Shown: positions 34,873-50,302 of the stretch, in pieces
Layout: each line of letters begins with the position of its first letter
Position numbering within the stretch: the first letter of the stretch is position 1
Assembly (NCBI GenBank): GCA_963789265.1
Contig: CAWBKB010000005.1
Coordinates: 640,001 to 704,000, forward strand
Source of the DNA: an uncultured delta proteobacterium
GTDB taxonomy: Bacteria; Desulfobacterota; Desulfomonilia; Desulfomonilales; Desulfomonilaceae
Reading direction: 5' to 3'
Length of the DNA stretch: 64,000 nt
The notes under the pieces: generated by a model
What the model was told of the DNA's origin: nothing
Databases searched by the model: none
The model's input: only the letters and a program-made list of their open reading frames with translations
Position numbers and translations under genes: made by a program

Positions 34873-35493
34873 CTACCCGGCCCAATCGCCCTGGAAGAAT
34901 TGTCTTGGACCACCCACATTGCGGAACGCTGAATTGAAGTTGCGATAAAATGCATGATAATTCGGAAATCTGTGCCATTTTTTGAGAAATCCGTCCGGCA
35001 GATCATCCCGTTCTTCAACCTTTTGCCACCCTCCTGGAACAGGGTACGCGTAGTAAGGCAAATCTTTTGGAATTCCTCTAATGAGCACCACTTGAGGAAT
35101 TACCCATTCACGTAGCGCCATGTACACTCGGTGCATTCCGTCGTTTATTATGAAGTGTACGGTCCCGTCCTTCTCAATTGATTCTTCAACTATTGGGGGC
35201 AAAAGATCGATCGGCTCGTCGTAGCCTTCAAAAACCAACCGCACAAATCCATTGAGAGCGAAAAGATCCACCTCATGTTCTTCCAAAGACCATTTTAACT
35301 CTCGGACCTTCTTCAATTCCTCCCTCAGGATGTAATTCTGCGGTGGGGAAAGACTGGCCGGCGAGACTTTCTCAAGAGAAATAAAGGCTCGGCTATAAAC
35401 CTTAATCTCTGGTGCTTTAAGCATGCTAACTTCCCGGAGCCTATCAATCAACTGATTCTCGGAAAACTTTTCCACGGTAGCAATCCTCATCAC
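34873..35493 (-). CDS. Hypothetical protein with a ParB/sulfiredoxin-like motif
   Basis: LPPIVE...IINDGMHR resembles the ParB/Srx PI.V..IDGHHR motif; RBS GGAGGAGG. Confidence 0.7.
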   Translation of the reverse strand: MMRIATVEKFSENQLIDRLREVSMLKAPEIKVYSRAFISLEKVSPASLSPPQNYILREELKKVRELKWSLEEHEVDLFALNGFVRLVFEGYDEPIDLLPPIVEESIEKDGTVHFIINDGMHRVYMALREWVIPQVVLIRGIPKDLPYYAYPVPGGWQKVEERDDLPDGFLKKWHRFPNYHAFYRNFNSAFRNVGGPRQFFQGDWAG

Positions 35494-35566: not shown

Positions 35567-36229
35567 TCACATCTTCATCTTCCGCTTAATCTTCGGGCGA
35601 TGAGACTCCTGATTTTCCGACGGACCGTGATCCAGGATACGCACTAGCCCTTCCATGTTCATTTCCGCGGAATCATGTGGCGAAGTCGCCGCCATCTTTC
35701 GGGCTGACGAATCCGTAAGTACGCGCAGTACCATTTCTAAAGATTGCTCGGACAGTGAAATCTGCTTGAAGACGCGGATGCTCTCATGGGATTCCATGAT
35801 TTGACGCCAGTAAAGGTCGAATTGCTTGTTTTGAGAATCATAGGATTCCTCAAAGTAAATCTCCCTAATCCCGGCTTGGATCAATTGCTTGAAACACCAG
35901 TTGCACGGCTCGAGCGTGCAGTAAAGAACAGCCCCCTCCAAAGAAATGCCGAACCGGGCCGCTTGGTCAATGGCATTCACCTCTGCATGGCTGGAAATAC
36001 AGTAGTTGTATTTGTCCGCATCGTGGGCCCCGATGGAACGCCTCAAGCAGAAGTCCGGCCCTTTATCAATGCAGTGGGGAGCCCCATGTACAGCGCCGTT
36101 ATATCCTGTGGTCAGTATCCTATTGTCTCGTACTATGACCGCACCTATCTTACGGGAATTGCAGGTCGATCTTGCACTCACAAGCTTTGCCAGCATCATA
36201 AAGTATTCGTGCCAGGAGGGTCGGTTCAT
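35567..36229 (-). CDS. dCMP deaminase (ComEB family)
   Basis: RPSWHEYFM, TGYNG, HAEVNA, PCNWC motifs. Confidence 0.92.
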   Translation of the reverse strand: MNRPSWHEYFMMLAKLVSARSTCNSRKIGAVIVRDNRILTTGYNGAVHGAPHCIDKGPDFCLRRSIGAHDADKYNYCISSHAEVNAIDQAARFGISLEGAVLYCTLEPCNWCFKQLIQAGIREIYFEESYDSQNKQFDLYWRQIMESHESIRVFKQISLSEQSLEMVLRVLTDSSARKMAATSPHDSAEMNMEGLVRILDHGPSENQESHRPKIKRKMKM

Positions 36230-36284
36230 TTCAGAATTTCCTTTTAATGGTCCGGAAGGAGCCGTCTGACAGCTCATCCGTATC

Positions 36285-39158: not shown

Positions 39159-39614
39159 TTCCTTTCCAACCCTTTTGAATGGCGCCGGCATTGAATGTCC
39201 TAAACACAGGGGCTTTAGAGACCCTCACCTTGATTGAATGTCCACTCTCAGGGAATGAGGGGTCAGAAAAAGCCTCCCTCCACCGGCGCCATTCCTTCTT
39301 TACCTCAACTCCACAAAAACGAAAAGCCCGAAAACGGCTGAAATCAGCCGCCCCTTTCAGGGCTTTTCATTGAAAACGAAAGGGTATGTTGAGAAGTACC
39401 CCTTTCCTATCACATTTTTGCTCTCTGGCAAGAACTTTTTTTTCGAGATGAAAACGCCGCTCATTTTCCTTGTTTCTTTCATGCCATGATCGACATGACA
39501 ACTCCCCACATTTAGTTTGGTTCGCTACTTTCTGAGTGTAAATTTTTTTGCTATTGCCGCGCAAAAATTTCAAACTGCCCCACTACCAAGCAGCTTATAT
39601 GGGCTATAAATATT

Positions 39615-39879
39615 TGGTGGAGGCGGCGGGAATCGAACCCGCGTCCGAGAACCTTCGGCACAAGATGTCTACATGCTTATTTCGAGTTTTGTGTCTCGTC
39701 CGGAAAGACCCCCTCGAAAAAGGTTCTTGCCAGACCAACCCGCTTGGTGTTTCGCCTTGCCTCCAACAGGCACGAAAGCTTGGCTATCCTGCTGACCTGC
39801 GCCTCTTCCGCCCCCGCGGGAGAAAGACATAGAGACGCAAGCCTTACGCGGTTAGAGCGTGCTCGTAGTTATTGGCGAG
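39615..39879 (-). repeat. 5'-truncated tmRNA copy (265 nt) with variant tag ANNYEHALTA
   Basis: Aligns to 45095-45360; the 3'-terminal 113 nt are identical, then 11 substitutions and 1 indel by manual count. Confidence 0.95.
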
Positions 39880-40175
39880 CACAAATGGGATCAGGTCTTG
39901 TTTTTTGCAGCAGCGAGATCGCGGCACGTGCCGCGCCCCCGTCGCATGACAATGAGCAGGACTTTACGGCGCAAAAAGAAGAAGTCATCGAAATAGACCT
40001 TTCAGCGCGTGAACCCAAGATCCGAAATCGCTGATTTAGCCTTGTTGAGAAGCTCCTTTCGTGAATCTTGAGGATTTGCCCCGACAGCATGGATCGCTAT
40101 TCTCCCAAGGATCTTTGCCCTATTGCCAGTTGTTACGTTTAGTAGTACATTAAAAAGTACTATAGGAGGTGTCGC

Positions 40176-40457
40176 GTGGGAAAGATAGCCAACATGATTC
40201 CAATCAGTGATCTCAGACGAGATGCCGCCAAGGTTCTGAAAAAAGTCCGAGATTCCCGAGAACCCCTCGTAATCACTCAAAGGGGGCGTGCGGCAGCGGT
40301 GATGCTCAGTGTGGAGGCTTACGAACGTTCGGAGCGGGAAAAGGAGCTTTTGCGCCTATTGGCCAAGGGAGAGAGAGAAATCGAGGCTGGTAAGGGACAT
40401 GATTTGGACTCAATTCTTGCTGAAGCCGATGCGCTCCTTGCGGATGAACCGTCGTGA
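40176..40457 (+). CDS. Phd/YefM-family antitoxin
   Basis: IPISDLRR..EPLVITQRGRAAAVMLSVEAYE; RBS AGGAGG. Confidence 0.9.
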   Translation: MGKIANMIPISDLRRDAAKVLKKVRDSREPLVITQRGRAAAVMLSVEAYERSEREKELLRLLAKGEREIEAGKGHDLDSILAEADALLADEPS

Positions 40458-40540
40458 AAATACGTTTTACCCCTTCGGTAAGAGTCCAATTCCTCTCCGC
40501 TCTGGCTTATATCTGTCAGGACAATCCTCACAGAAAATGA
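40454..40540 (+). pseudogene. Truncated RelE/ParE-family toxin (28 codons)
   Basis: GTGA overlap with the antitoxin; MKIRFTPSVRVQFLSALAYICQDNP then a stop. Confidence 0.8.
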
Positions 40541-40965
40541 CTCAGGTCGTGCCTTTTGCAGCAGCGGGATCGCTGCGCATATTTGGCTCCATTACATGAA
40601 AGTGAGCAGGACTGTACAAAGCGAAAGAAGAAGTCAAGAAACAAGACCTGCCCCCCTGACTACGTCGGCGTTTCCCAGATTCGCTCACCTGTCAGAAATC
40701 CTCTTTTCCATGGTGCCGCGGCACAAATACACGGCCAGCCTCTGTCCCCACCCTGAAACAAATGTAATCCGGTTCCCGCAAGAATTCGAGACCAGTGGGA
40801 GCTTCGATCTGGCTCTCGTCCAGAAGAAACGAGTGGAGCATTTCATTTGCCCAATAACCTTACAAGTACCAGGCTGCGGTACGATTCCAAGATTTTGAGG
40901 CAAAGTCAGACATGGTTTTACTTGATTCTTGTTATGAACTGGCAGGGGGACACTCGCCACAATTT

Positions 40966-41859
40966 TCATTCCCGCGTGGCAACAATAACTCCGGTCAAGA
41001 TCAGAACACCACTCAGTACATGGACCCAACGGACCGGCTCGTTCAACAATAGAAAAGCCTCAACGCCGCTAAACAAAGGGAGACAATAGTATACAAGGCC
41101 GGCCCGCACCGGTCCAATGATCTCGATACCTCGGTTCCAACAGAAAAAAGCCAACAGCGACGGACCAACACCCAGATATATGATGGCTCCGATAGCAGTT
41201 GGAGAAAAGTTGATGGATTTGACCCCAGTTAGCTCCCAGAGGAACCACGGAACCAAAAATAGCCATCCCAGAATAAACATGGAAGAGAGGAATACGCTCT
41301 GACTAAGTTCCGCAGGTTTGACCTGGACGAGAATACCGTACACAGCGAATGTTGCTGCCTGAATCAACATCCACACATCACCCTCGGAAAGGGTCAAATT
41401 CATCAGACGACTAAGCTGGCCGTTCGTGATCAACAGGACAGCTCCCAACGCGGCTGTGATAAGACCGACGATTCTCCGCAACGTAAAAGTGTCGTGAAGG
41501 AACAGTCGAGCAAACACTGCCAGAAAAATAGGCGAGCACAAGGCGATCAATGTCATATTCAGGGCGTTCGAGCTGTGGGCGGCTATGTAAATAAGGGTGT
41601 TGCACACAGTCAAGCCGAAGAACCCTGTCAAAGCAAGATAACCAAGGTGTTTACGGACCGTCTTCATGTCGCGGCACAAGGGGCGTATCCCAAAGGGAAT
41701 TAGCACAACTACTGCTATAAGGCCGCGTAAGAATGCAATCGTCACCGGTGGTATGGAATCTGACAGTCCCCGAGCAACAATAAAATTACCAGACCAAATC
41801 AGCGTTGCGGATAAGACGAACAAATAGCCGGTGGTAGATTGTGTTTGCCTCGGTATCAA
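40966..41859 (-). CDS. DMT/EamA transporter
   Basis: IWSGNFIVAR, two EamA repeats, about 10 TM. Confidence 0.92.
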   Translation of the reverse strand: MIPRQTQSTTGYLFVLSATLIWSGNFIVARGLSDSIPPVTIAFLRGLIAVVVLIPFGIRPLCRDMKTVRKHLGYLALTGFFGLTVCNTLIYIAAHSSNALNMTLIALCSPIFLAVFARLFLHDTFTLRRIVGLITAALGAVLLITNGQLSRLMNLTLSEGDVWMLIQAATFAVYGILVQVKPAELSQSVFLSSMFILGWLFLVPWFLWELTGVKSINFSPTAIGAIIYLGVGPSLLAFFCWNRGIEIIGPVRAGLVYYCLPLFSGVEAFLLLNEPVRWVHVLSGVLILTGVIVATRE

Positions 41860-42181
41860 GTATCACGTATCCCCATGCCGTAAAGAAATTCCGAGAAAAC
41901 CGCTTCATTATGTAGCAGATCGCTGCCCAACGCGCCACACCTGGCCGGATGGGCCTTTGGTTTTCCCTGGAACAGGACGAGCACCGGACTGCGGAGGGAT
42001 TCCAGGATCTTACAGTGGGGGGTGGCCGTAGTTTTCTTCGGACGGTCTGCAGAGGAAGGTCCCGCGCGTTGGAAAGAAAGCAAAACAGCATTGGCCGAAA
42101 TGCTTGGGGTGCAGTTCTGGGGTGTGCATTCGTTTGCACCCCCATTTTCGTCAACAAAAGTCAAAAATATCGCGGAATTAC

Positions 42182-42212
42182 TGGTGGAGGCGGCGGGAAT
42201 CGAACCCGCGTC
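42182..42212 (-). repeat. 31-nt tmRNA 3'-end copy (att core)
   Basis: tggtggaggcggcgggaatcgaacccgcgtc identical to 45095-45125. Confidence 0.95.
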
Positions 42213-42719
42213 GTGAGTTATTAAGTCTCGGCATATCAATATGTCACCTCTGCGCCAGAGTCAATTGCATCCAATTTGCATCCAATGTAGATCTTGTCCA
42301 TTCACTCCACTGAAATTCCCTCAACCGTTCAGCGTTCATATGATAAATCCGAGTGTTTTCAGCAATCTTGATGTTCGACGATTTCACGATGTTGTTTGAC
42401 TGACTGGATAAAATCGGCTAACCTTATAAGCGTGTCATTTGTGATCAAGCCTCAAGGCAAATAAAGCAATTGGTGTTGCGTTATTTAGTAATTGTATTCG
42501 ACCATTAAATTCTTTATTTCGTGATCCCCTCTTTATCCGATGCTGCAAAAGTACAGGGAGGGACAACAAGCCGATAATCAGAAGACAAGTTAATTGTGAA
42601 AGTAGAATTGACCCACTTTTTTCAGGGAGGAGTTCCATGCAAACGCTGTAAAGAAATCGTGGTGTTACGGGGCCAGAACCACCCAAAAGCAAATCCTTAT
42701 CTTAAGGGAGGGAGAAAAA

Positions 42720-43733
42720 ATGTCGAACCATTTTACCGGACTCAGTCTCGGTCCACCTCTCGGGGACCAAAAACTCGACCTGTGCGACCTCTACGCGTTC
42801 CAGTCGCCCACTGACCCGTCGAGGACTGTGATCATCCTCAATGCAAATCCGAATGCCGACGCGCTCCATCCTGACGCCATCTATCGCCTCAACATTGACA
42901 ACGACGAAGACTGCCTGACGGACATCGCGATCAGTTACGTGTTCTCGCCACCGCAAAACGGTATCCAGACCGTGAACGTCTTCGTGGCAAAAGGCGCGGA
43001 ATCCCGCTCGGTCGAAGCTGTTGGGACTAAGATCATCGCCGATGCTGAGGTCTCCTTCGGCGCCAACCCCAACATTGTCAAGTCCGGCGCCTACACTTTC
43101 TTCGCCGGTACTCGCAGCGACGCTTTCTTTTTCGACTACGACGGAATCAAGAATCTGTTCGATACCTCGGGCGGCAGAAATTTCACCGCACCTCACCTGG
43201 GCGGCAAGTCTCCGTGGACCGGCGTGGATTCAAATATGGAAGGCAATGTGTTCTCGACAGTGATCGAGCTGCCGACAAGCGAGCTGGGTGCGAACCCGGA
43301 GATCCGGATCTGGGGGCGGTGCAGCGTGCGCAAGGACGGCAAGCTGATTCATGCCGATCGCGCTGGCCACCCGAGCGTCAGCAGCTTCTTCAATACCGAC
43401 GACACCAAATTGGAATACAACGCCAGCGAGCCGGTCAACGATCGCAAACGTTGGACGGATCAGTTTGTTCACTTGATGGGGCATACGGGCAATTACACCC
43501 GCGAAGAAGCAATCGCCGCGATCGATGCTGACCGCATTCTGCCCGACATGCTGTGCTTCGATCCTTCGAAGCCCGCGAAGTATCCAAACGGCCGCGATTT
43601 TACTGACGACGTCATCAATCATCGCCTCGCCTTCCTCTCCAAGGGCGATATTCCCCCCACCGGCCTCAAGCCGCACACCGACATTCTCAAGGAGTTCCCG
43701 TACATTGGCACGCCGCACCAGAAGAAGAGCTAA
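42720..43733 (+). CDS. DUF4331-like protein
   Basis: DLCDLYAF, FAGTRSDAFFFD, DRAGHP, YPNGR..DDV, FPY motifs. Confidence 0.8.
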   Translation: MSNHFTGLSLGPPLGDQKLDLCDLYAFQSPTDPSRTVIILNANPNADALHPDAIYRLNIDNDEDCLTDIAISYVFSPPQNGIQTVNVFVAKGAESRSVEAVGTKIIADAEVSFGANPNIVKSGAYTFFAGTRSDAFFFDYDGIKNLFDTSGGRNFTAPHLGGKSPWTGVDSNMEGNVFSTVIELPTSELGANPEIRIWGRCSVRKDGKLIHADRAGHPSVSSFFNTDDTKLEYNASEPVNDRKRWTDQFVHLMGHTGNYTREEAIAAIDADRILPDMLCFDPSKPAKYPNGRDFTDDVINHRLAFLSKGDIPPTGLKPHTDILKEFPYIGTPHQKKS

Positions 43734-43789
43734 CGGCGCGCGACGGATCCAGTGTTTTATGCCAAGGCGCATTCAAAGAAGTAAGATTA

Positions 43790-43953
43790 GGGGAAACTTC
43801 TTTGTAAAGAGTTTCCCCCCAAACCCCCTTCCAGAAACTTCTATTATTTGCCGGAACCCCCATTTCCTACAGGGAAATTCGGGATTCCGACGAGTGCTAA
43901 AAGTTCTTGAGGTGGGGTTCGGGGAGGAACTTCTTACAAGAAGTGTCTCCCCG
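43790..43953. repeat. Palindromic MITE/REP-like element
   Basis: Terminal hairpins GGGGAAACTT..AGTTTCCCC and GGGGAGGAACTTCTT..AAGAAGT..CTCCCC around a central palindrome. Confidence 0.7.
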
Positions 43954-44295
43954 ATTCTTCCTTGTTTGAATGCGAATCCTCGCCGACAGGAGTTGGCGTC
44001 GAGCTAGCCCCTGTTGACGAGGATGCGATCAGGAGTCGGCGGATGATGCTTGCTGACTTTGTCTTTGAGGCAATCCGTTCTTTCAACTATGCGGAATCGC
44101 TTTTTCAGTGGAGCTGATCATCAGGATGCTTCGGGATGCTGGGGTACATCTGTCTCAGGTCAGGAGTCTCAAGTTTTGCGTGTAGACGGATGGGCGGAAG
44201 GATGCGGTGTGGGAACGCGGTCGTCAAAAGGAAGGAATCTCCGCCCGCGCAGAATTTGCAGACACTTTTGGAGGGGTTTGTATCAGTAAGTTAAT

Positions 44296-44389
44296 TGGTG
44301 GAGGCGGCGGGAATCGAACCCGCGTCCGAGAATCTTCAGCACAAGATCTCTACATGCTTAGTCCGTGTTTTGTGTCTCGTCCGGAAAGA
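44296..44389 (-). repeat. 94-nt diverged tmRNA 3'-end copy
   Basis: Aligns to 45095-45188 with about 6 substitutions. Confidence 0.93.
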
Positions 44390-44413
44390 GCCCGCCGAAA
44401 TTCACTTCTGATC

Positions 44414-44640
44414 TCAGTCTCGGAGCAGGCGAAAGTATTCTTCTCTCGAAATCCCTAAGGTACCATAATGTTTTTTATTATTGAAACTGGTACTTCCGAT
44501 CTTTCCGGTATGACGACCGGTCACGCCAAACCCTGCCTTATGTAAGATCTATGGCTTCCCTTCTGTCTCGCAAATTTGAGTCCGCTACGAATTACGACCT
44601 TTTCAAGCTCTCGCCAATGTATAGGGACGAGACGGGGCAC
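44414..44640 (-). pseudogene. hicA: HicA toxin pseudogene
   Basis: MPRLVPIHWRELEK..RQKGSH..GLA*PVVIP..IIKNIM; TGA at 44521-44523; 1-nt shift before TLGISREEYFRLLRD. Confidence 0.85.
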
Positions 44641-44642
44641 GA

Positions 44643-44906
44643 TCAAATACTCAGGCTCATTTCGCGGCGTTCCGGTTTATTCACAACAACCCATCTTCCA
44701 CCAACGGGTGAATAACCAGTTTCCGCAAGAATGTCCTGAAGTGTCTCCATTTCTTGGGCGGTTTCCAGAAAAAGCTCTACGGCTTCCAGCAGAGATTCCT
44801 CGGCTTCCTTCCGAGTGTCACCGCAAGATAGAACGTTCAATGGATTAGCGCGGGCAACGAATTTGCCTCCTTCTTTCCAGACTTCGGCTTCAAACGTAAA
44901 TTCCAT
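44643..44906 (-). CDS. hicB: HicB-family antitoxin
   Basis: SCGDTRKEAEESLLEAVELFLE; directly upstream of hicA. Confidence 0.85.
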   Translation of the reverse strand: MEFTFEAEVWKEGGKFVARANPLNVLSCGDTRKEAEESLLEAVELFLETAQEMETLQDILAETGYSPVGGRWVVVNKPERREMSLSI

Positions 44907-45035
44907 CGAGGTCACCTTTCGATGCAATTCTAATCATGGATCTGGCCAAATGCAACCATGTTTTATGTAGAAATACACAGATGGGCAGTGAAATCAGGAG
45001 GGAGTTAAGCACTTGTCGGACAGTCTGATAGCTGT

Positions 45036-45062
45036 ATTACAGGGCTTCATTCGCCCTGTAAT
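45036..45062 (-). terminator. Hairpin downstream of ssrA
   Basis: 10-bp stem ATTACAGGGC/GCCCTGTAAT; no clear U tract. Confidence 0.4.
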
Positions 45063-45094
45063 GATAGAAGCAGCTAATATTGGCTATAAATATT

Positions 45095-45451
45095 TGGTGG
45101 AGGCGGCGGGAATCGAACCCGCGTCCGAGAACCTTCGGCACAAGATGTCTACATGCTTATTTCGAGTTTTGTGTCTCGTCCGGAAAGACCCCCTCGAAAA
45201 AGGTTCTCACCGAGACCAACCCGCTTGGTGTTTCGCCTTGCCTCCAACAGGTACGGAAGCTTGGCTATCCTGCTGACCTGCGCCCCTTCCGCCCCCGCAG
45301 GAGAAAGACGGAGAGACGCTAGCCTTACGCGGCTAGAGCGTACTCGTAGTTATTGGCGAGTATTTTTTGATACCGGCGGTTTAACGAGTCACCGGAGTGC
45401 TCGGCATGCAACCTTGACCTCAACTATCCCCGTCGAAACCAGGGCGCCCCC
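45095..45451 (-). ncRNA. ssrA: tmRNA; tag peptide ANNYEYALAA
   Basis: 5' GGGGGCG pairs with 3' CGCCTCC-ACCA including G3.U; T-arm GTTCGATTC; tag ORF; adjacent to smpB. Confidence 0.98.
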
Positions 45452-45540: not shown

Positions 45541-46014
45541 TCAGGACTGTCGTTGCCGGTACTTTACCAATCTCTCCATCTCGCGGCGCTGGTCCTTCTT
45601 CTTCATGGCTTCGCGCTTGTCATAGGTTTTCTTGCCCCGGGCAAGCGCCAACTCCACTTTGACCATACCATTCTTGAAGTAGAGTTTCAATGGGACTAGT
45701 GAAAAACCTCTCTCCGCGACTTTGCCCAGCAGCTTCTTGATTTCCCGTTTATGAAGAAGCAGCTTGCGGTCTCGGAGAGGTTCGTGATTTTCCCTGCTTG
45801 CCTGTTCGTAAGGAGAAATGTGAGCATCTACCAGGAATAATTCGCCGTTTCGGAATTTGCCGTACGAATCGGATAGATTAGCCTTGCCGTTCCTGAGAGA
45901 TTTGACTTCCGATCCCCAAAGGCTGATGCCCGCTTCAAAGGTGTCCTCGATCTCGAAATTGAAGCGAGCTTTTCTGTTCTTGCAGATTATCTTCACGTGG
46001 TTGTCTTGGGTCAT
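45541..46014 (-). CDS. smpB: SsrA-binding protein
   Basis: NRKARF, EAGISLWGSEVKSLR, RKLLLHK, GKKTYDKR. Confidence 0.98.
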   Translation of the reverse strand: MTQDNHVKIICKNRKARFNFEIEDTFEAGISLWGSEVKSLRNGKANLSDSYGKFRNGELFLVDAHISPYEQASRENHEPLRDRKLLLHKREIKKLLGKVAERGFSLVPLKLYFKNGMVKVELALARGKKTYDKREAMKKKDQRREMERLVKYRQRQS

Positions 46015-48453: not shown

Positions 48454-50302
48454 CCATAATCCACCACCTCATTTGGCGGAGGATCTCTTGATGTCCCCTT
48501 GGACCGAAAATTTACCCTTGGTTATGTCCCCCGCCCATGCGAACCGGACCAGGTAGCACGTCGGACCGATTCGTATGCCGAATTCCCCCTGCTCGGGCGG
48601 ATTTCCGGCACACTAACCCCCCCCGGTCAGTCTATTTCCACCCGTCTGCGCCTCATTTCCCCCGTCGGCGGCGCTCTCTAGCCTGACTCGCAAAGGCTCA
48701 GAATTCTCCTCCTCATTTCAAATAGTGTCTCGTTCGACGCATGCCCCCCAACCAGTCGAACACGCAGCATCCGAGCACGCTTGAGCACGCGTCCCGGCAG
48801 CTTGATCAACCAGAACCTTATGGCCTTCATGCGCTTGCCCACCCATGTTTCTCCCAGAACCAGGCGCTTCATCGCCGAGTTCAGGTTCAAAGCCAAGATC
48901 ATGATGTGCCACCATGCTGCGTTTACCCCGAAATACCCTGAAGGAAGTCTGCCCCCTGCAAGATCTTCCTTCATAACCGAATGCGCCTCTTCAGATTTAC
49001 CGCAGCGCTCTCTGTACCACCAAATCAGCTCGTCCCCAGGAATGTCACGATTCGTGACAATCCCGAACACCTTGTACTTCATCGACCCAAAATGCATGGT
49101 AGGAAACGGCAATGAAACTTGCCCATCCATCTCCGGAAGTTCCGGCTGCTCCAAAACCTCGCGAATAGCCAGGTACCGGAAACATGGACCATCTTTCTTG
49201 CGTGCGAGCTCATCGGGAACGAAACAGACCTCCGCGTACTCTTGACCCCTTGTAACCAAGCCATTCTCAGTCTTGCGATACAAACTATGCCAATCCGACT
49301 CCTCAACCTCGCGAACAGCCTGCCTGAACGATTCGGTTACCTTGGCCCCTATGGCAAACTCGATGACACCGAAACGCAGCTTCTTCGGCTCCGCACAGAA
49401 CCTCATCAGCTCATGCTGATATCCTGCCGTATCCGACCGCAGATATACCTTCGACACCCCCGCAGGCAGGAACCCCAAGGCCTCTTCAAAGACGCGAAGA
49501 TTGTCCTTACCGGCCCAGACGTTGCCGTCTCGGAACTCCGAGTGCACAATGAGATCCTGTTCCGCCCAGTACACCTGCAAAGGCTGATACGCCTTGTGCC
49601 CCTTGTAGCAGTAGAGAGCCTCTCGCTTGTTCGTCTCCACCACCGTCGCATCGAGATCCAGAGTCGCTACCTCCTGAGGAGACCGCTTCTGCACCGAGCC
49701 CAGAAAATCCTCGTTCACCTGCATCATCGCTCGCAAACGGGGGGTCGGCATCGGTATGAAAGAAGTGCCCGCCTCCCTGAGCTTCTCCTGCTCGGGATCG
49801 TGAAACTGATACAGATACCGGCTGGCCGAAGAAGGAGACGGCACCGACCTCTTCTGCCCCTTGCGCAGCCTCTTGCTCAGGACTCGTCTCTCCTGTCGCG
49901 GTTTTCCAAACCCCATTGACTCCCGAAGTACCCGACAAAATCCCTCGTCTCCTTCCAGTATCTCCAGGTCGCTGATCCCTTGACCGTCCGCCAGATTCAG
50001 AAGTATCAGAGCCATTACTGTCTCGGAGTCAGACCACCCCTGGGCACCTGATCGCACCTTGAGCCGATTCTCTATGGCCCTGCTCAACCCCATCACATAC
50101 CCGAATTCCAGGTATGTCGGCAATCCGGCCAACGCCGTCATCCCCCCAGGCTTCTTCTCAACCTCATACTGGAAAGGGAAAATGCCTTGTGCCATAATCA
50201 CTTCACCTCGTTGGTGATAGATCCTTGTTGCAAACCGGATTCTATCCTCTTGATTCCTCAAGAACAACGAGGTTTTTCACTTTTTTTGATGCGCAATCAA
50301 GG
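48454..50302 (-). mobile_element. IS1380-family insertion sequence with 5-bp TSD TTCAC
   Basis: TTCAC at 48449-48453 and 50303-50307; imperfect IR CCTTGATTGCGCA / CCATAATCCACCA. Confidence 0.85.
48678..50195 (-). CDS. IS1380 DDE transposase
   Basis: TLDLDAT, FRDGN, LRSDTAG, YRERCGKSE, LPSGYFGVNAAW motifs. Confidence 0.92.
   Translation of the reverse strand: MAQGIFPFQYEVEKKPGGMTALAGLPTYLEFGYVMGLSRAIENRLKVRSGAQGWSDSETVMALILLNLADGQGISDLEILEGDEGFCRVLRESMGFGKPRQERRVLSKRLRKGQKRSVPSPSSASRYLYQFHDPEQEKLREAGTSFIPMPTPRLRAMMQVNEDFLGSVQKRSPQEVATLDLDATVVETNKREALYCYKGHKAYQPLQVYWAEQDLIVHSEFRDGNVWAGKDNLRVFEEALGFLPAGVSKVYLRSDTAGYQHELMRFCAEPKKLRFGVIEFAIGAKVTESFRQAVREVEESDWHSLYRKTENGLVTRGQEYAEVCFVPDELARKKDGPCFRYLAIREVLEQPELPEMDGQVSLPFPTMHFGSMKYKVFGIVTNRDIPGDELIWWYRERCGKSEEAHSVMKEDLAGGRLPSGYFGVNAAWWHIMILALNLNSAMKRLVLGETWVGKRMKAIRFWLIKLPGRVLKRARMLRVRLVGGHASNETLFEMRRRILSLCESG

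What the first reader, a model, noticed from the sequence alone, without database searches (positions are those of the whole stretch)
39588..45451. Tandem array of small integrase-less cassettes separated by tmRNA 3'-end copies
Seen: ssrA is followed by three more copies of its 3' end, all in the same orientation (44296-44389, 42182-42212, 39615-39879). They delimit units of about 0.7 kb (hicB-hicA*), 2.1 kb (DUF4331) and 2.3 kb (EamA, phd-relE*). I could recognise no tyrosine or serine recombinase in any unit. Established: ssrA is a common attB for tyrosine-integrase islands, and tandem islands occur. Inference: units this small with preserved att cores suggest either a cassette array mobilised in trans (integron-like accretion at ssrA) or heavily reduced islands.
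Basis: partly seen in the sequence, partly recalled or inferred. Interest (0 to 1): 0.8.

Follow-up and report, generated by a model that had tools for sequence, protein, structure and literature searches.

The report
Worn-out mobile islands behind tmRNA gene
Behind the tmRNA gene of this soil deltaproteobacterium lie leftovers of several mobile DNA islands that have lost their own insertion enzyme, a familiar fate at this well-known insertion hot spot.

Summary
ssrA (45095-45451, minus strand) is followed by three same-orientation copies of its 3' end (about 105, 31 and 265 nt). They bound a broken hicA pair, a DUF4331 gene, and an EamA plus phd/truncated-parE block. I found no recombinase remnant in any frame.

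The integron-like reading is not supported; "reduced islands" fits best.
- The DUF4331 unit ends in a conserved integrase-arm sequence. In three relatives the same arm lies next to an HTH_17 plus tyrosine-integrase module.
- The order unit B, core, unit C is fixed in three genomes of two genera and continues at least 52 nt into unit C on a short contig of a third. It is never shuffled, and the core is decaying in two of them.
- Unit A is strain-specific.
- The 265-nt copy sits 161 nt from the breakpoint of a 44-kb inversion.
- The genome has no ssrA-type integrase; its nearest homologue (54-58% identity) sits beside tRNA-Met.
- In the family, 0 of 12 units bounded by two cores carry an integrase, so such relics are the rule.

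Tandem ssrA islands, about half without integration genes and proposed as cis-mobilisable elements, were described in Dehalococcoides (PMC3146451). This scan has noted the same pattern in at least 31 other genomes. Verdict: real, ordinary, a new member of a known kind.

The parts
45541..46014 (-). smpB, the conserved upstream neighbour of ssrA
   Evidence: PF01668 SmpB, E 1.2e-62
45095..45451 (-). Functional tmRNA gene (ssrA), tag ANNYEYALAA; the integration target
   Evidence: ARAGORN; Rfam RF00023, 181 bits, model positions 1-374
44401..45094 (-). Unit A (0.69 kb). A 159-nt leader with a hairpin, a DUF7387-like small ORF in the HicB position (44643-44927), and a hicA pseudogene (44418-44640) with two in-frame stops. 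Strain-specific insertion.
   Evidence: It is absent between ssrA and unit B in G001 and in a contig of run X2. Among the four runs laid, only X1 covers it.
44296..44400 (-). Copy of the ssrA 3' end, about 105 nt, 91% identical to the resident ssrA; exact over at least the last 31 nt. The far-end site (attR) of unit A.
   Evidence: It is closer to the ssrA of G004 (93.7%) and G005 (93.0%) than to the genome's own (90.8%).
42213..44295 (.). Unit B (2.08 kb). Contains a terminator-like leader (44078-44295), a 206-nt palindromic repeat element (43759-43964), the DUF4331 gene (42720-43733, plus strand), and an integrase-arm region (42213-42320) with a tandem GGATGCAAAT motif at 42264-42283.
42182..42212 (-). 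31-nt exact copy of the ssrA 3' core; the far-end site (attR) of the element that brought unit B
   Evidence: The core and both flanks are conserved in six genomes (alignment A1). The arm motif is shared with loci that carry an integrase (alignment A4).
39880..42181 (.). Unit C (2.30 kb), a mosaic rather than one cassette. Contains a conserved flank (about 42060-42181), EamA (40966-41859, minus strand) inserted between about 70-nt diverged duplicates (41948-42011 and 40855-40918), a 115-nt dispersed repeat (40522-40659), a parE stump (40454-40540, plus), phd (40176-40457, plus), and a second copy of the 115-nt repeat (39881-40002).
39588..39879 (-). 265-nt copy of the ssrA 3' part, including a tag frame reading ANNYEHALTA, plus 27 nt that match the first 27 nt of unit A. 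It marks the outer end of the array.
   Evidence: The 3' 140 nt are 99% and the 5' 148 nt 94% identical to ssrA. The Rfam match to the 5' part of the model is mostly unpaired.
39453..39454 (.). Right breakpoint of an inversion of about 44 kb, specific to this genome, 161 nt beyond the 3' end of the 265-nt copy
   Evidence: Synteny with G001, G002 and G006. Contigs of runs X2 and X7 leave the window sequence at 39453 (tables 7 and 8).

Best explanation
The ssrA gene of this Desulfomonilaceae genome is an integration hot spot. The 5.5 kb behind it is a stack of eroded integrative elements, not an active cassette system.

Shown:
- Each boundary is a direct copy of the ssrA 3' end.
- The 31-nt boundary of unit B carries a conserved arm with a tandem GGATGCAAAT motif about 60 nt from the core. 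In relatives the same arm lies 0.04-3.5 kb downstream of an HTH_17 plus tyrosine-integrase module.
- Units B and C lie in the same order in relatives of other genera.
- Unit A is present only in this strain.

Inferred:
- A tyrosine-integrase element inserted into the ssrA 3' end long ago. Deletions later removed everything except a cargo gene (DUF4331) and the arm.
- A second element inserted into the regenerated ssrA later and shrank to its toxin-antitoxin pair, whose toxin then broke.
- Addiction modules (hicBA, phd-parE) survive longest because losing the antitoxin first is lethal. This would explain why both toxins are broken while both antitoxin-position ORFs are still open.
- The 265-nt copy marks the outer end of the array.

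The relics could still be moved passively if a matching integrase arrived. Nothing in this genome can do so now.
For: 1. The repeats are real and unique to this locus.
2. The arm, core and flank of the B/C junction are conserved in G000, G001, G021, G019, G005:C631 and G004:C44 (A1).
3. The tandem motif at a fixed distance from the core is shared with three loci where a tyrosine integrase lies just upstream: G005:C631, G063:C57 and G064:C317. These integrases are 61-76% identical to each other.
4. Fixed layout. In G001 (same genus) ssrA is followed directly by B and C at 93% identity, against 92% for the flanking core genes. In G021 (another genus) ssrA-B-C is collinear at 83%.
5. Non-coding parts of unit B diverge like smpB: G021 74% against 76%, G010 79% against 73%.
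6. Decay:
   - The core has 4 of 31 mismatches in G001. In G021 it is not found at <= 3 mismatches in 24 nt.
   - hicA has two in-frame stops.
   - parE is cut to 28 codons here but is an intact 79-aa ORF in G001.
   - A 206-nt repeat element is inserted in B. It is absent from G010, G019 and G021.
7. Unit A is an exact insertion between ssrA and B. G001 lacks it, as does a contig of run X2 (joint 44400 to 45213). Its 105-nt repeat is more like the ssrA of other species than the genome's own.
8. No cognate integrase. The best homologue of the ssrA-linked type is 54-58% identical and lies 250 nt from tRNA-Met.
9. Family survey. 60 of 70 genomes hold the core and 16 hold two or more copies. None of the 12 units bounded by two cores on one contig (0.8-9.2 kb, 9 genomes) has a PF00589 match.
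10. Precedent. McMurdie et al. 2011 (PMC3146451, passages read) describe tandem ssrA islands in Dehalococcoides, 16 with and 15 without integration modules.
Against: - No integrase pseudogene was found in any unit, so the lost integrases are inferred, not seen.
- In this genome all four 31-nt cores are identical and the arm motif of unit B is intact. That is also what a still-usable site would look like.
- The non-coding part of unit B is 87% identical in G019:C10, a genus whose ssrA is only 83% identical. This hints at a more recent transfer. However, that contig is 4.3 kb long, in a MAG with 6% contamination.
- Every unit seen between two cores lacks an integrase (0 of 12). This is more extreme than the roughly half reported for Dehalococcoides.
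- Whether unit C is an old island or the native flank could not be settled.
- The 105-nt and 265-nt copies lack the arm motif. They may have arisen by another integrase type or by homologous recombination.
Confidence: 0.7

Rival explanations
1. The units are working cis- or trans-mobilisable elements (CIME-like). They keep functional attachment sites and are excised, transferred and re-inserted by an integrase supplied by a neighbouring or incoming ssrA element, so the array grows by accretion.
For: - Core copies are perfect and the arm motif of unit B is intact in this genome.
- The same arm motif is kept in integrase-less units of G003, G004, G063 (unit b) and G070.
- G063:C57 has an element with an integrase followed by two integrase-less units of 8.7 and 0.84 kb.
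- 0 of 12 two-core units carry an integrase.
- Unit B in G019:C10 is 87-97% identical, although it comes from another genus.
- The idea was proposed for Dehalococcoides (PMC3146451).
Against: - No shuffled order was seen. B is followed by the same flank in G000, G001, G021 and G019.
- The core is decaying in G001 and G021.
- Unit A and the 265-nt copy lack the arm motif.
- This genome has no matching integrase.
- The leader of unit A was not among the 150 rows listed for 70 family genomes (40 further matches were not listed).
- The ssrA/unit-A junction 28-mer has no exact match in the metagenome collection.
- Non-coding divergence of B in G021 and G010 tracks smpB.
Confidence: 0.17
2. The two long copies (105 nt and especially 265 + 27 nt) were not made by an integrase. 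They arose by RecA-type Campbell insertion, or by a segmental duplication of a piece that already contained part of ssrA and the first bases of unit A.
For: - The 27 nt after the 265-nt copy match the first 27 nt of unit A in 25 of 27 positions. The copy therefore looks like a duplicate of the ssrA/unit-A junction.
- Identity is 99% over the 3' 140 nt and 94% over the 5' 148 nt.
- The copy is closest to this lineage's own ssrA: 95% to G000 and 94% to G001, against 90-91% to G002, G003, G005 and G006 and 82% to G004.
- It has no arm motif.
- It abuts a dispersed 115-nt repeat and lies 161 nt from an inversion breakpoint.
Against: - Long identity blocks between element and target sites are also usual for tRNA/tmRNA integrases (general knowledge; the Islander abstract, PMC4383910, was seen in the listing).
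- The 105-nt copy is closer to foreign ssrA genes than to the resident one, as expected of an element-borne arm.
- In the pre-inversion order the 265-nt copy lies exactly where an outermost attR should lie, between the array and the conserved isochorismatase/kinase block.
Confidence: 0.25
3. The array, or its distal 265-nt copy and the inversion, is an assembly artefact of a metagenome-assembled genome at a repeated sequence.
For: - The genome is a MAG with 6% estimated contamination.
- No laid contig of the same-strain run X1 covers 39722-39932.
- Contigs in relatives often break at ssrA.
Against: - The locus lies inside an 838-kb contig.
- ssrA-B-core-C is independently assembled in G001 and G021.
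- X1 contigs match units A, B and C with few or no differences (table 8).
- The inversion breakpoint at 39453 coincides with the point where contigs of two other runs diverge.
Confidence: 0.04

Closest known systems
Dehalococcoides ssrA-specific genomic islands (McMurdie et al. 2011, PMC3146451; passages read)
   Same: [quoted passage not shown] About half (15 of 31) have no integration module, and the authors proposed them as cis-mobilisable elements or fixed relics.
   Different: There the recombinase is a large serine recombinase (DsiB), placed next to the ssrA-proximal end, and the repeat is 20 bp. Here the linked enzyme in relatives is a tyrosine integrase with an HTH_17 partner, placed near the distal end, with a tandem arm motif. 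The repeats are 31, 105 and 265 nt and the units are much smaller (0.7-2.3 kb).
Cis-mobilisable elements (CIMEs) of ICE families. The concept is recalled; the term appeared only in the search listing and abstracts (e.g. ICEberg 2.0, PMC6323972).
   Same: DNA flanked by attachment sites, without recombination or transfer genes, lying in tandem with or derived from an autonomous element that uses the same site.
   Different: Mobilisation has not been shown here. This genome has no autonomous partner, and two of the three distal sites lack the arm motif.
tRNA/tmRNA-integrated genomic islands of tyrosine integrases, as in the Islander database (PMC4383910; abstract seen in the listing)
   Same: The target gene is regenerated and a displaced 3' fragment marks the far end. 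Tandem arrays are known.
   Different: By definition these islands carry their integrase. None of the three units here does.
Integron cassette arrays
   Same: Small gene units lie in a row, separated by a repeated recombination site, and toxin-antitoxin cassettes are present.
   Different: There is no IntI gene at the head of the array. The separators are ssrA ends, not attC hairpins. Genes point both ways, and the units have their own leaders. This is a resemblance in layout only.

Membership tests
tRNA/tmRNA-integrated genomic island (tyrosine integrase type) | Intact target gene plus a displaced 3' fragment in direct orientation at the far end | tested here: met
   Four same-strand copies of the 31-nt core and none elsewhere in the genome
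tRNA/tmRNA-integrated genomic island (tyrosine integrase type) | Integrase gene inside the island | tested here: not met
   No PF00589 hit in the window. No recombinase family in 105 six-frame segments. tblastn best E 2.1.
tRNA/tmRNA-integrated genomic island (tyrosine integrase type) | Arm-type repeat motif beside the core, shared with elements that carry the integrase | tested here: met
   Met for the 31-nt copy only. The tandem GGATGCAAAT motif at 42264-42283 is shared with G005:C631, G063:C57 and G064:C317. It is absent beside the 105-nt and 265-nt copies.
tRNA/tmRNA-integrated genomic island (tyrosine integrase type) | Presence/absence polymorphism among close relatives | tested here: inconclusive
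   Unit A is absent in G001 and in a contig of run X2. Units B and C are present in the same order in G001 and G021.
Cis-mobilisable element (CIME) | Attachment sites on both sides and no recombination or transfer genes | tested here: met
Cis-mobilisable element (CIME) | Excision or transfer when a cognate element supplies the integrase | not testable with these tools
   Only Logan contigs were available, and no circle junction was seen. No cognate integrase exists in this genome.
Integron | IntI-type integrase with attI at the head of the array | tested here: not met
   The head of the array is smpB-ssrA. There is no tyrosine recombinase in the 64-kb window.
Integron | Cassettes separated by attC sites and read in one direction | tested here: not met
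   The separators are ssrA 3' ends. Genes lie on both strands. No attC model was run. A 115-nt dispersed repeat beside phd has 14-nt terminal inverted repeats and gave no consensus fold.
HicAB type II toxin-antitoxin pair | HicA toxin domain in an open frame | tested here: not met
   PF07927 matches only profile positions 1-28, at 25.7 bits (cut-off 27). Two in-frame stops follow. Intact orthologues in G018 and G081 score 46 and 38 bits.
Phd/ParE type II toxin-antitoxin pair | Antitoxin and toxin both intact | tested here: not met
   phd is intact (PF02604, 68 bits; TIGR01552). parE is cut after 28 codons, whereas G001 has a 79-aa PF05016 protein.

The most novel reading that the evidence does not exclude
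In Desulfomonilaceae the small integrase-less units behind ssrA may not be random wreckage. They could be a standing pool of one- to few-gene cassettes that keep a conserved arm motif and are shuffled between genomes by the HTH_17 plus integrase module of the ssrA-proximal element. That would be a tyrosine-integrase counterpart of cassette accretion. The DUF4331 gene would be one of its most successful passengers.
Probability: 0.1. Interest if true: 0.6.

Novelty: new member of a known kind. Interest (0 to 1): 0.25.

Why it matters
The result shows how an ssrA hot spot ages. Elements insert, lose their integrase and most cargo, and leave toxin-antitoxin stumps and single cargo genes between attachment-site scars that are then inherited vertically. 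It adds Desulfomonilaceae, with a tyrosine-integrase arm motif, to a pattern published for Dehalococcoides and noted repeatedly in this scan. For annotation it gives a practical warning: extra tmRNA hits (Rfam at 39615-39940, ARAGORN at 44430-45187) are scars, not genes. It does not open a new mechanism.

Tried and rejected
- Integrase or transposase remnants in 39400-45100: none found.
- A second working tmRNA at 39615-39940. Rfam scores 82 bits over model positions 1-374, but the 5' third is unpaired filler and one strand of the long helix is missing. Rejected as a fragment.
- ARAGORN's permuted tmRNA at 44430-45187. Its 'tag' is simply the broken hicA reading frame. Rejected as an artefact.
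- The exact ssrA/unit-A junction 28-mer in metagenome contigs: 0 matches.
- Circles or empty sites within this strain. Only Logan contigs could be laid and none shows a circle junction. The one X1 joint (39647 to 45317) rests on 30 nt of the shared core and has higher depth than the strain, so I set it aside. Contigs drop rare forms, so this says nothing about absence.
- A repeat shared by the two inversion breakpoints: none.
- The hicBA homologues of G018, G084, G081 and G012: none lies near an ssrA core.
- tRNA 3'-end repeats on the far side of DUF4331 in four loci where it abuts a tRNA gene: none within 5 kb.
- The 115-nt repeat as an attC or a structured RNA. Single-copy folds are unremarkable (z from -1.7 to +0.9), and my alifold run on 30 copies gave no consensus fold (the script then stopped on a division by zero).
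- Fold of the DUF4331 protein. The model is confident (pLDDT 89.4). Foldseek hits have TM about 0.1 and the best VIA Z is 7.5, to a starch-binding beta-sandwich, within the range the tool calls common.
- Earlier notes on this genome: none.

Full report
**Observation.** The window is G000:C5:640001-704000 of a 6.06-Mb, 9-contig metagenome-assembled genome. Titles of close relatives place it in Desulfomonilaceae. smpB (45541-46014, minus strand) is followed by ssrA (45095-45451, minus). The last 31 nt of ssrA occur four times, all on the same strand, at 45095, 44296, 42182 and 39615. None is expected by chance, and there is no further copy in the genome.

Homology to ssrA runs for 109 aligned nt at 44292-44400 (91%), for 31 nt at 42182-42212, and for 265 nt at 39615-39879. 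The last copy carries on for 27 nt beyond the tmRNA end (39588-39614), and these match 45068-45094; the whole 293-nt alignment is 95% identical.
- Unit A has a small ORF in the HicB position and a hicA with two in-frame stops. Intact orthologues exist in G018 and G081.
- Unit B has DUF4331.
- Unit C has EamA, phd and a parE stump of 28 codons.

**No recombinase.** A six-frame PF00589 search of the genome gave 12 hits, none in the window. All 105 stop-to-stop segments of 35 aa or more between 39400 and 45100 gave no integrase, resolvase or transposase family at E <= 0.1. tblastn with the proteins of an ssrA-linked element of a relative gave nothing better than E 0.23 (integrase: E 2.1). G+C content across the array (0.46-0.57) does not stand out from its surroundings.

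**What relatives show.** I searched 40 relatives with ssrA and 70 family genomes (G000 included) with the whole array, then fetched the loci.

*Same order in other genomes.* In G001 (same genus, ssrA 99% identical) ssrA is followed directly by unit B and then unit C. Identity is 93% over 3.9 kb, against 92% for the core genes upstream. Unit A is missing. In G021, another genus, ssrA, B and the start of C are again collinear at 83%. On G019:C10, B lies between two cores, with the same 52 nt of C behind it. In G010, DUF4331 and its upstream region lie at the far end of a 5.2-kb integrase-less unit with a different arm. No genome shows the units in another order.

*Decay of the core.* The B/C core has 4 of 31 mismatches in G001. 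In G021 it is worn further, escaping a search at <= 3 mismatches in 24 nt (visible in A1). Non-coding DNA of unit B diverges about as much as smpB: G021 74% against 76%, G010 79% against 73%. G019:C10 is the exception at 87%. It is a 4.3-kb contig of a MAG with 6% contamination.

**The arm.** About 110 nt upstream and 120-230 nt downstream of the 31-nt core are conserved in six genomes (A1). About 60 nt upstream of the core lies a tandem GGATGCAAAT motif (42264-42283). The same motif at the same distance is present at three loci where a tyrosine integrase, preceded by an HTH_17 protein in G005 and G063, lies 0.04-3.5 kb upstream of the core. These loci are G005:C631, G063:C57 and G064:C317, and their integrases are 61-76% identical to each other. 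The motif is also present beside integrase-less units of G003, G004, G063 and G070.

I read it as the arm-type binding site of that integrase family. The reading is an inference from position and conservation, not a tested function. Unit B is therefore what remains of such an element: the arm and a cargo gene. The 105-nt and 265-nt copies have no such motif. Their upstream parts are ssrA-like sequence instead, so they come from another element type or another process.

**Unit A.** It sits exactly between ssrA and the leader of B. That leader follows ssrA directly in G001 and G021, and in diverged form in G006. Among the four runs laid, a contig of run X2 joins 44400 to 45213, which is ssrA straight into B. 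Units B and C are covered in all four runs, but unit A only in X1, the run whose contigs match the window with few or no differences. The 105-nt repeat is closer to the ssrA of G004 (93.7%) and G005 (93.0%) than to the resident gene (90.8%), as expected of an element-borne copy. Homologues of the hicBA pair in four other genera (68-79%) lie nowhere near an ssrA core. The 159-nt leader was not among the 150 rows listed for the family search (40 more matches were not listed). The junction 28-mer has no exact match in metagenome contigs.

**Unit C is a mosaic.**
- EamA lies between two diverged copies of a roughly 70-nt segment. G021 and G004:C44 lack it and carry that segment once.
- phd/parE is bordered by two copies of a 115-nt dispersed repeat with 14-nt terminal inverted repeats. 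The genome has 33 copies.
- G001 has an intact parE and an extra zinc-ribbon/HTH_8 gene where G000 has a 916-nt deletion.

Whether the conserved flank after the 31-nt core is the native chromosome or an older element could not be decided.

**The 265-nt copy and the inversion.** G000 carries an inversion of about 44 kb (C5: about 634850 to 679453) relative to G001, G002 and G006. Contigs of two other runs leave the window sequence at exactly 39453. No repeat is shared by the two breakpoints. Undoing the inversion puts the 265-nt copy between the array and the isochorismatase/kinase/glycosyltransferase block that follows the array in G001. That is where an outermost boundary should lie.

The 27 nt behind the copy equal the first 27 nt of unit A in 25 of 27 positions. 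Identity to ssrA is 99% in the 3' 140 nt and 94% in the 5' 148 nt. Either the incoming element carried a long identity block that ran past the tmRNA end, or the copy arose by homologous recombination or duplication of the ssrA/unit-A junction. I cannot tell which. The Rfam hit (82 bits) is a fragment, because its 5' third does not pair.

**Is there an integrase that could move the units?** The 12 tyrosine recombinases of G000 include none of the ssrA-linked type. The best homologue (54-58% identity) lies 250 nt from tRNA-Met. A second ssrA-linked type, found in G005:C692 and G063:C12, has a 41-43% homologue with no tRNA gene within the 3.5-kb locus fetched.

**Family survey.** The 25-nt core, allowing up to 2 mismatches, is found in 60 of 70 genomes. 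16 genomes have two or more copies, and G000 and G063 have the most, with four each. Twelve units are bounded by two cores on one contig: G000 (3), G063 (2), and one each in G003, G010, G019, G043, G068, G070 and G084. They measure 0.8-9.2 kb. None contains a PF00589 match. One holds an IS200-type transposase. Integrases appear only in units whose ssrA-side boundary is off the contig, or in the unit next to ssrA.

**Comparison with what is known.** McMurdie et al. 2011 (PMC3146451; I read passages through, not the whole paper) describe tandem islands behind the Dehalococcoides ssrA. They are bounded by 20-bp repeats of its 3' end. Sixteen carry a serine-recombinase integration module and 15 do not. 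The authors proposed the latter as cis-mobilisable elements or as fixed former elements. The Islander abstract (PMC4383910, listing) states the general rule of a regenerated target plus a displaced fragment. The present case has the same architecture with a tyrosine-integrase arm and smaller units. Notes of this scan list at least 31 other genomes with integrase-less units stacked behind ssrA. I did not test those.

**Verdict.** The best explanation is a stack of eroded integrative elements at an ssrA hot spot (confidence 0.7). A still-mobilisable CIME-like state is possible for unit B (0.17) but unsupported by any sign of movement. An integron-like system is not supported. Novelty: a new member of a known kind. 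Interest: 0.25.

**Side observation.** The DUF4331 protein of unit B is 81-99% identical in amino acids in the 80 loci kept (of 347 relatives found). These come from Desulfomonilaceae, Acidobacteriota, cyanobacteria, Legionella, Streptomyces, Chloroflexota, Ignavibacteriota and others. Its coding sequence is 93-98% identical in the relatives' loci compared (G001, G021, G019, G010), including genera whose smpB is only 73-76% identical. It has no conserved neighbour in 71 loci. In 6 of 60 loci it lies tail to tail within about 0.8 kb of a tRNA or tmRNA gene. It gives a confident model with no clear structural relative. It has no PDB sequence match and no paper in the library searched.

Noticed in passing
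window 42720-43733 (+): The 337-aa DUF4331 protein is 81-99% identical in amino acids in the 80 loci kept (of 347 relatives found). These come from many phyla, including Desulfomonilaceae, Acidobacteriota, Nostoc, Legionella, Streptomyces, Chloroflexota and Ignavibacteriota. Its coding sequence is 93-98% identical in the relatives' loci compared (G001, G021, G019, G010), including genera whose smpB is 73-76% identical. It is a solitary gene with no conserved neighbour in 71 loci. The AlphaFold model is confident (pLDDT 89.4) but has no clear structural relative. There is no PDB sequence hit and no paper. It looks like a very widely exchanged single gene of unknown function.
   Followed up: partly
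L028, L029, L038, L046, L048, L080 (loci): In 6 of the 60 DUF4331 loci scanned, the gene lies tail to tail within about 0.2-0.8 kb of the 3' end of a tRNA or tmRNA gene (Pro, Leu, Met, Glu, and tmRNA twice). No tRNA-end repeat was found on the other side within 5 kb in the four tRNA cases.
   Followed up: partly
window 39453/39454, and G000:C5 634843-635408 (about 5 kb left of the window start): This genome has an inversion of about 44 kb relative to G001, G002 and G006. The two breakpoints share no repeat.
   Followed up: yes
window 39881-40002 and 40522-40659: A 115-nt dispersed repeat family with 14-nt terminal inverted repeats has 33 copies in the genome, often in same-strand pairs or clusters 0.3-1.8 kb apart. 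It matched no Rfam family at gathering score in 30000-55000.
   Followed up: partly
window 43759-43964: A 206-nt palindromic repeat element is inserted downstream of DUF4331 in G000 and G001. It is absent at that spot in G010, G019 and G021, and copies occur in many family genomes.
   Followed up: partly
window 40855-40918 and 41948-42011: EamA is flanked by two diverged copies of a roughly 70-nt segment that begins with an ATG. G021 and G004:C44 carry the segment once and lack EamA.
   Followed up: partly
window 44430-45187 (-): ARAGORN calls a permuted tmRNA here. Its 'tag peptide' is the reading frame of the broken hicA, so this is a false call.
   Followed up: yes
L133 (G063:C57:16000-31511): A parallel array in another genus. 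An HTH_17 plus integrase is followed by a core, then an 8.7-kb unit holding a 1262-aa NACHT/HEAT/metallophosphatase protein, a second core, a 0.84-kb unit with one 121-aa ORF, and a third core.
   Followed up: partly
window 34873-35493 (-) and 35567-36277 (-): A ParB CE-domain protein (PF24392, E 7e-73) lies next to a cytidine/deoxycytidylate deaminase-family protein, just beyond an EF-G-like GTPase.
   Followed up: no
window 48678-50267 (-): A DDE_Tnp_1_4 transposase (529 aa) lies upstream of the ptsI-like gene, about 3 kb from ssrA on the smpB side.
   Followed up: no
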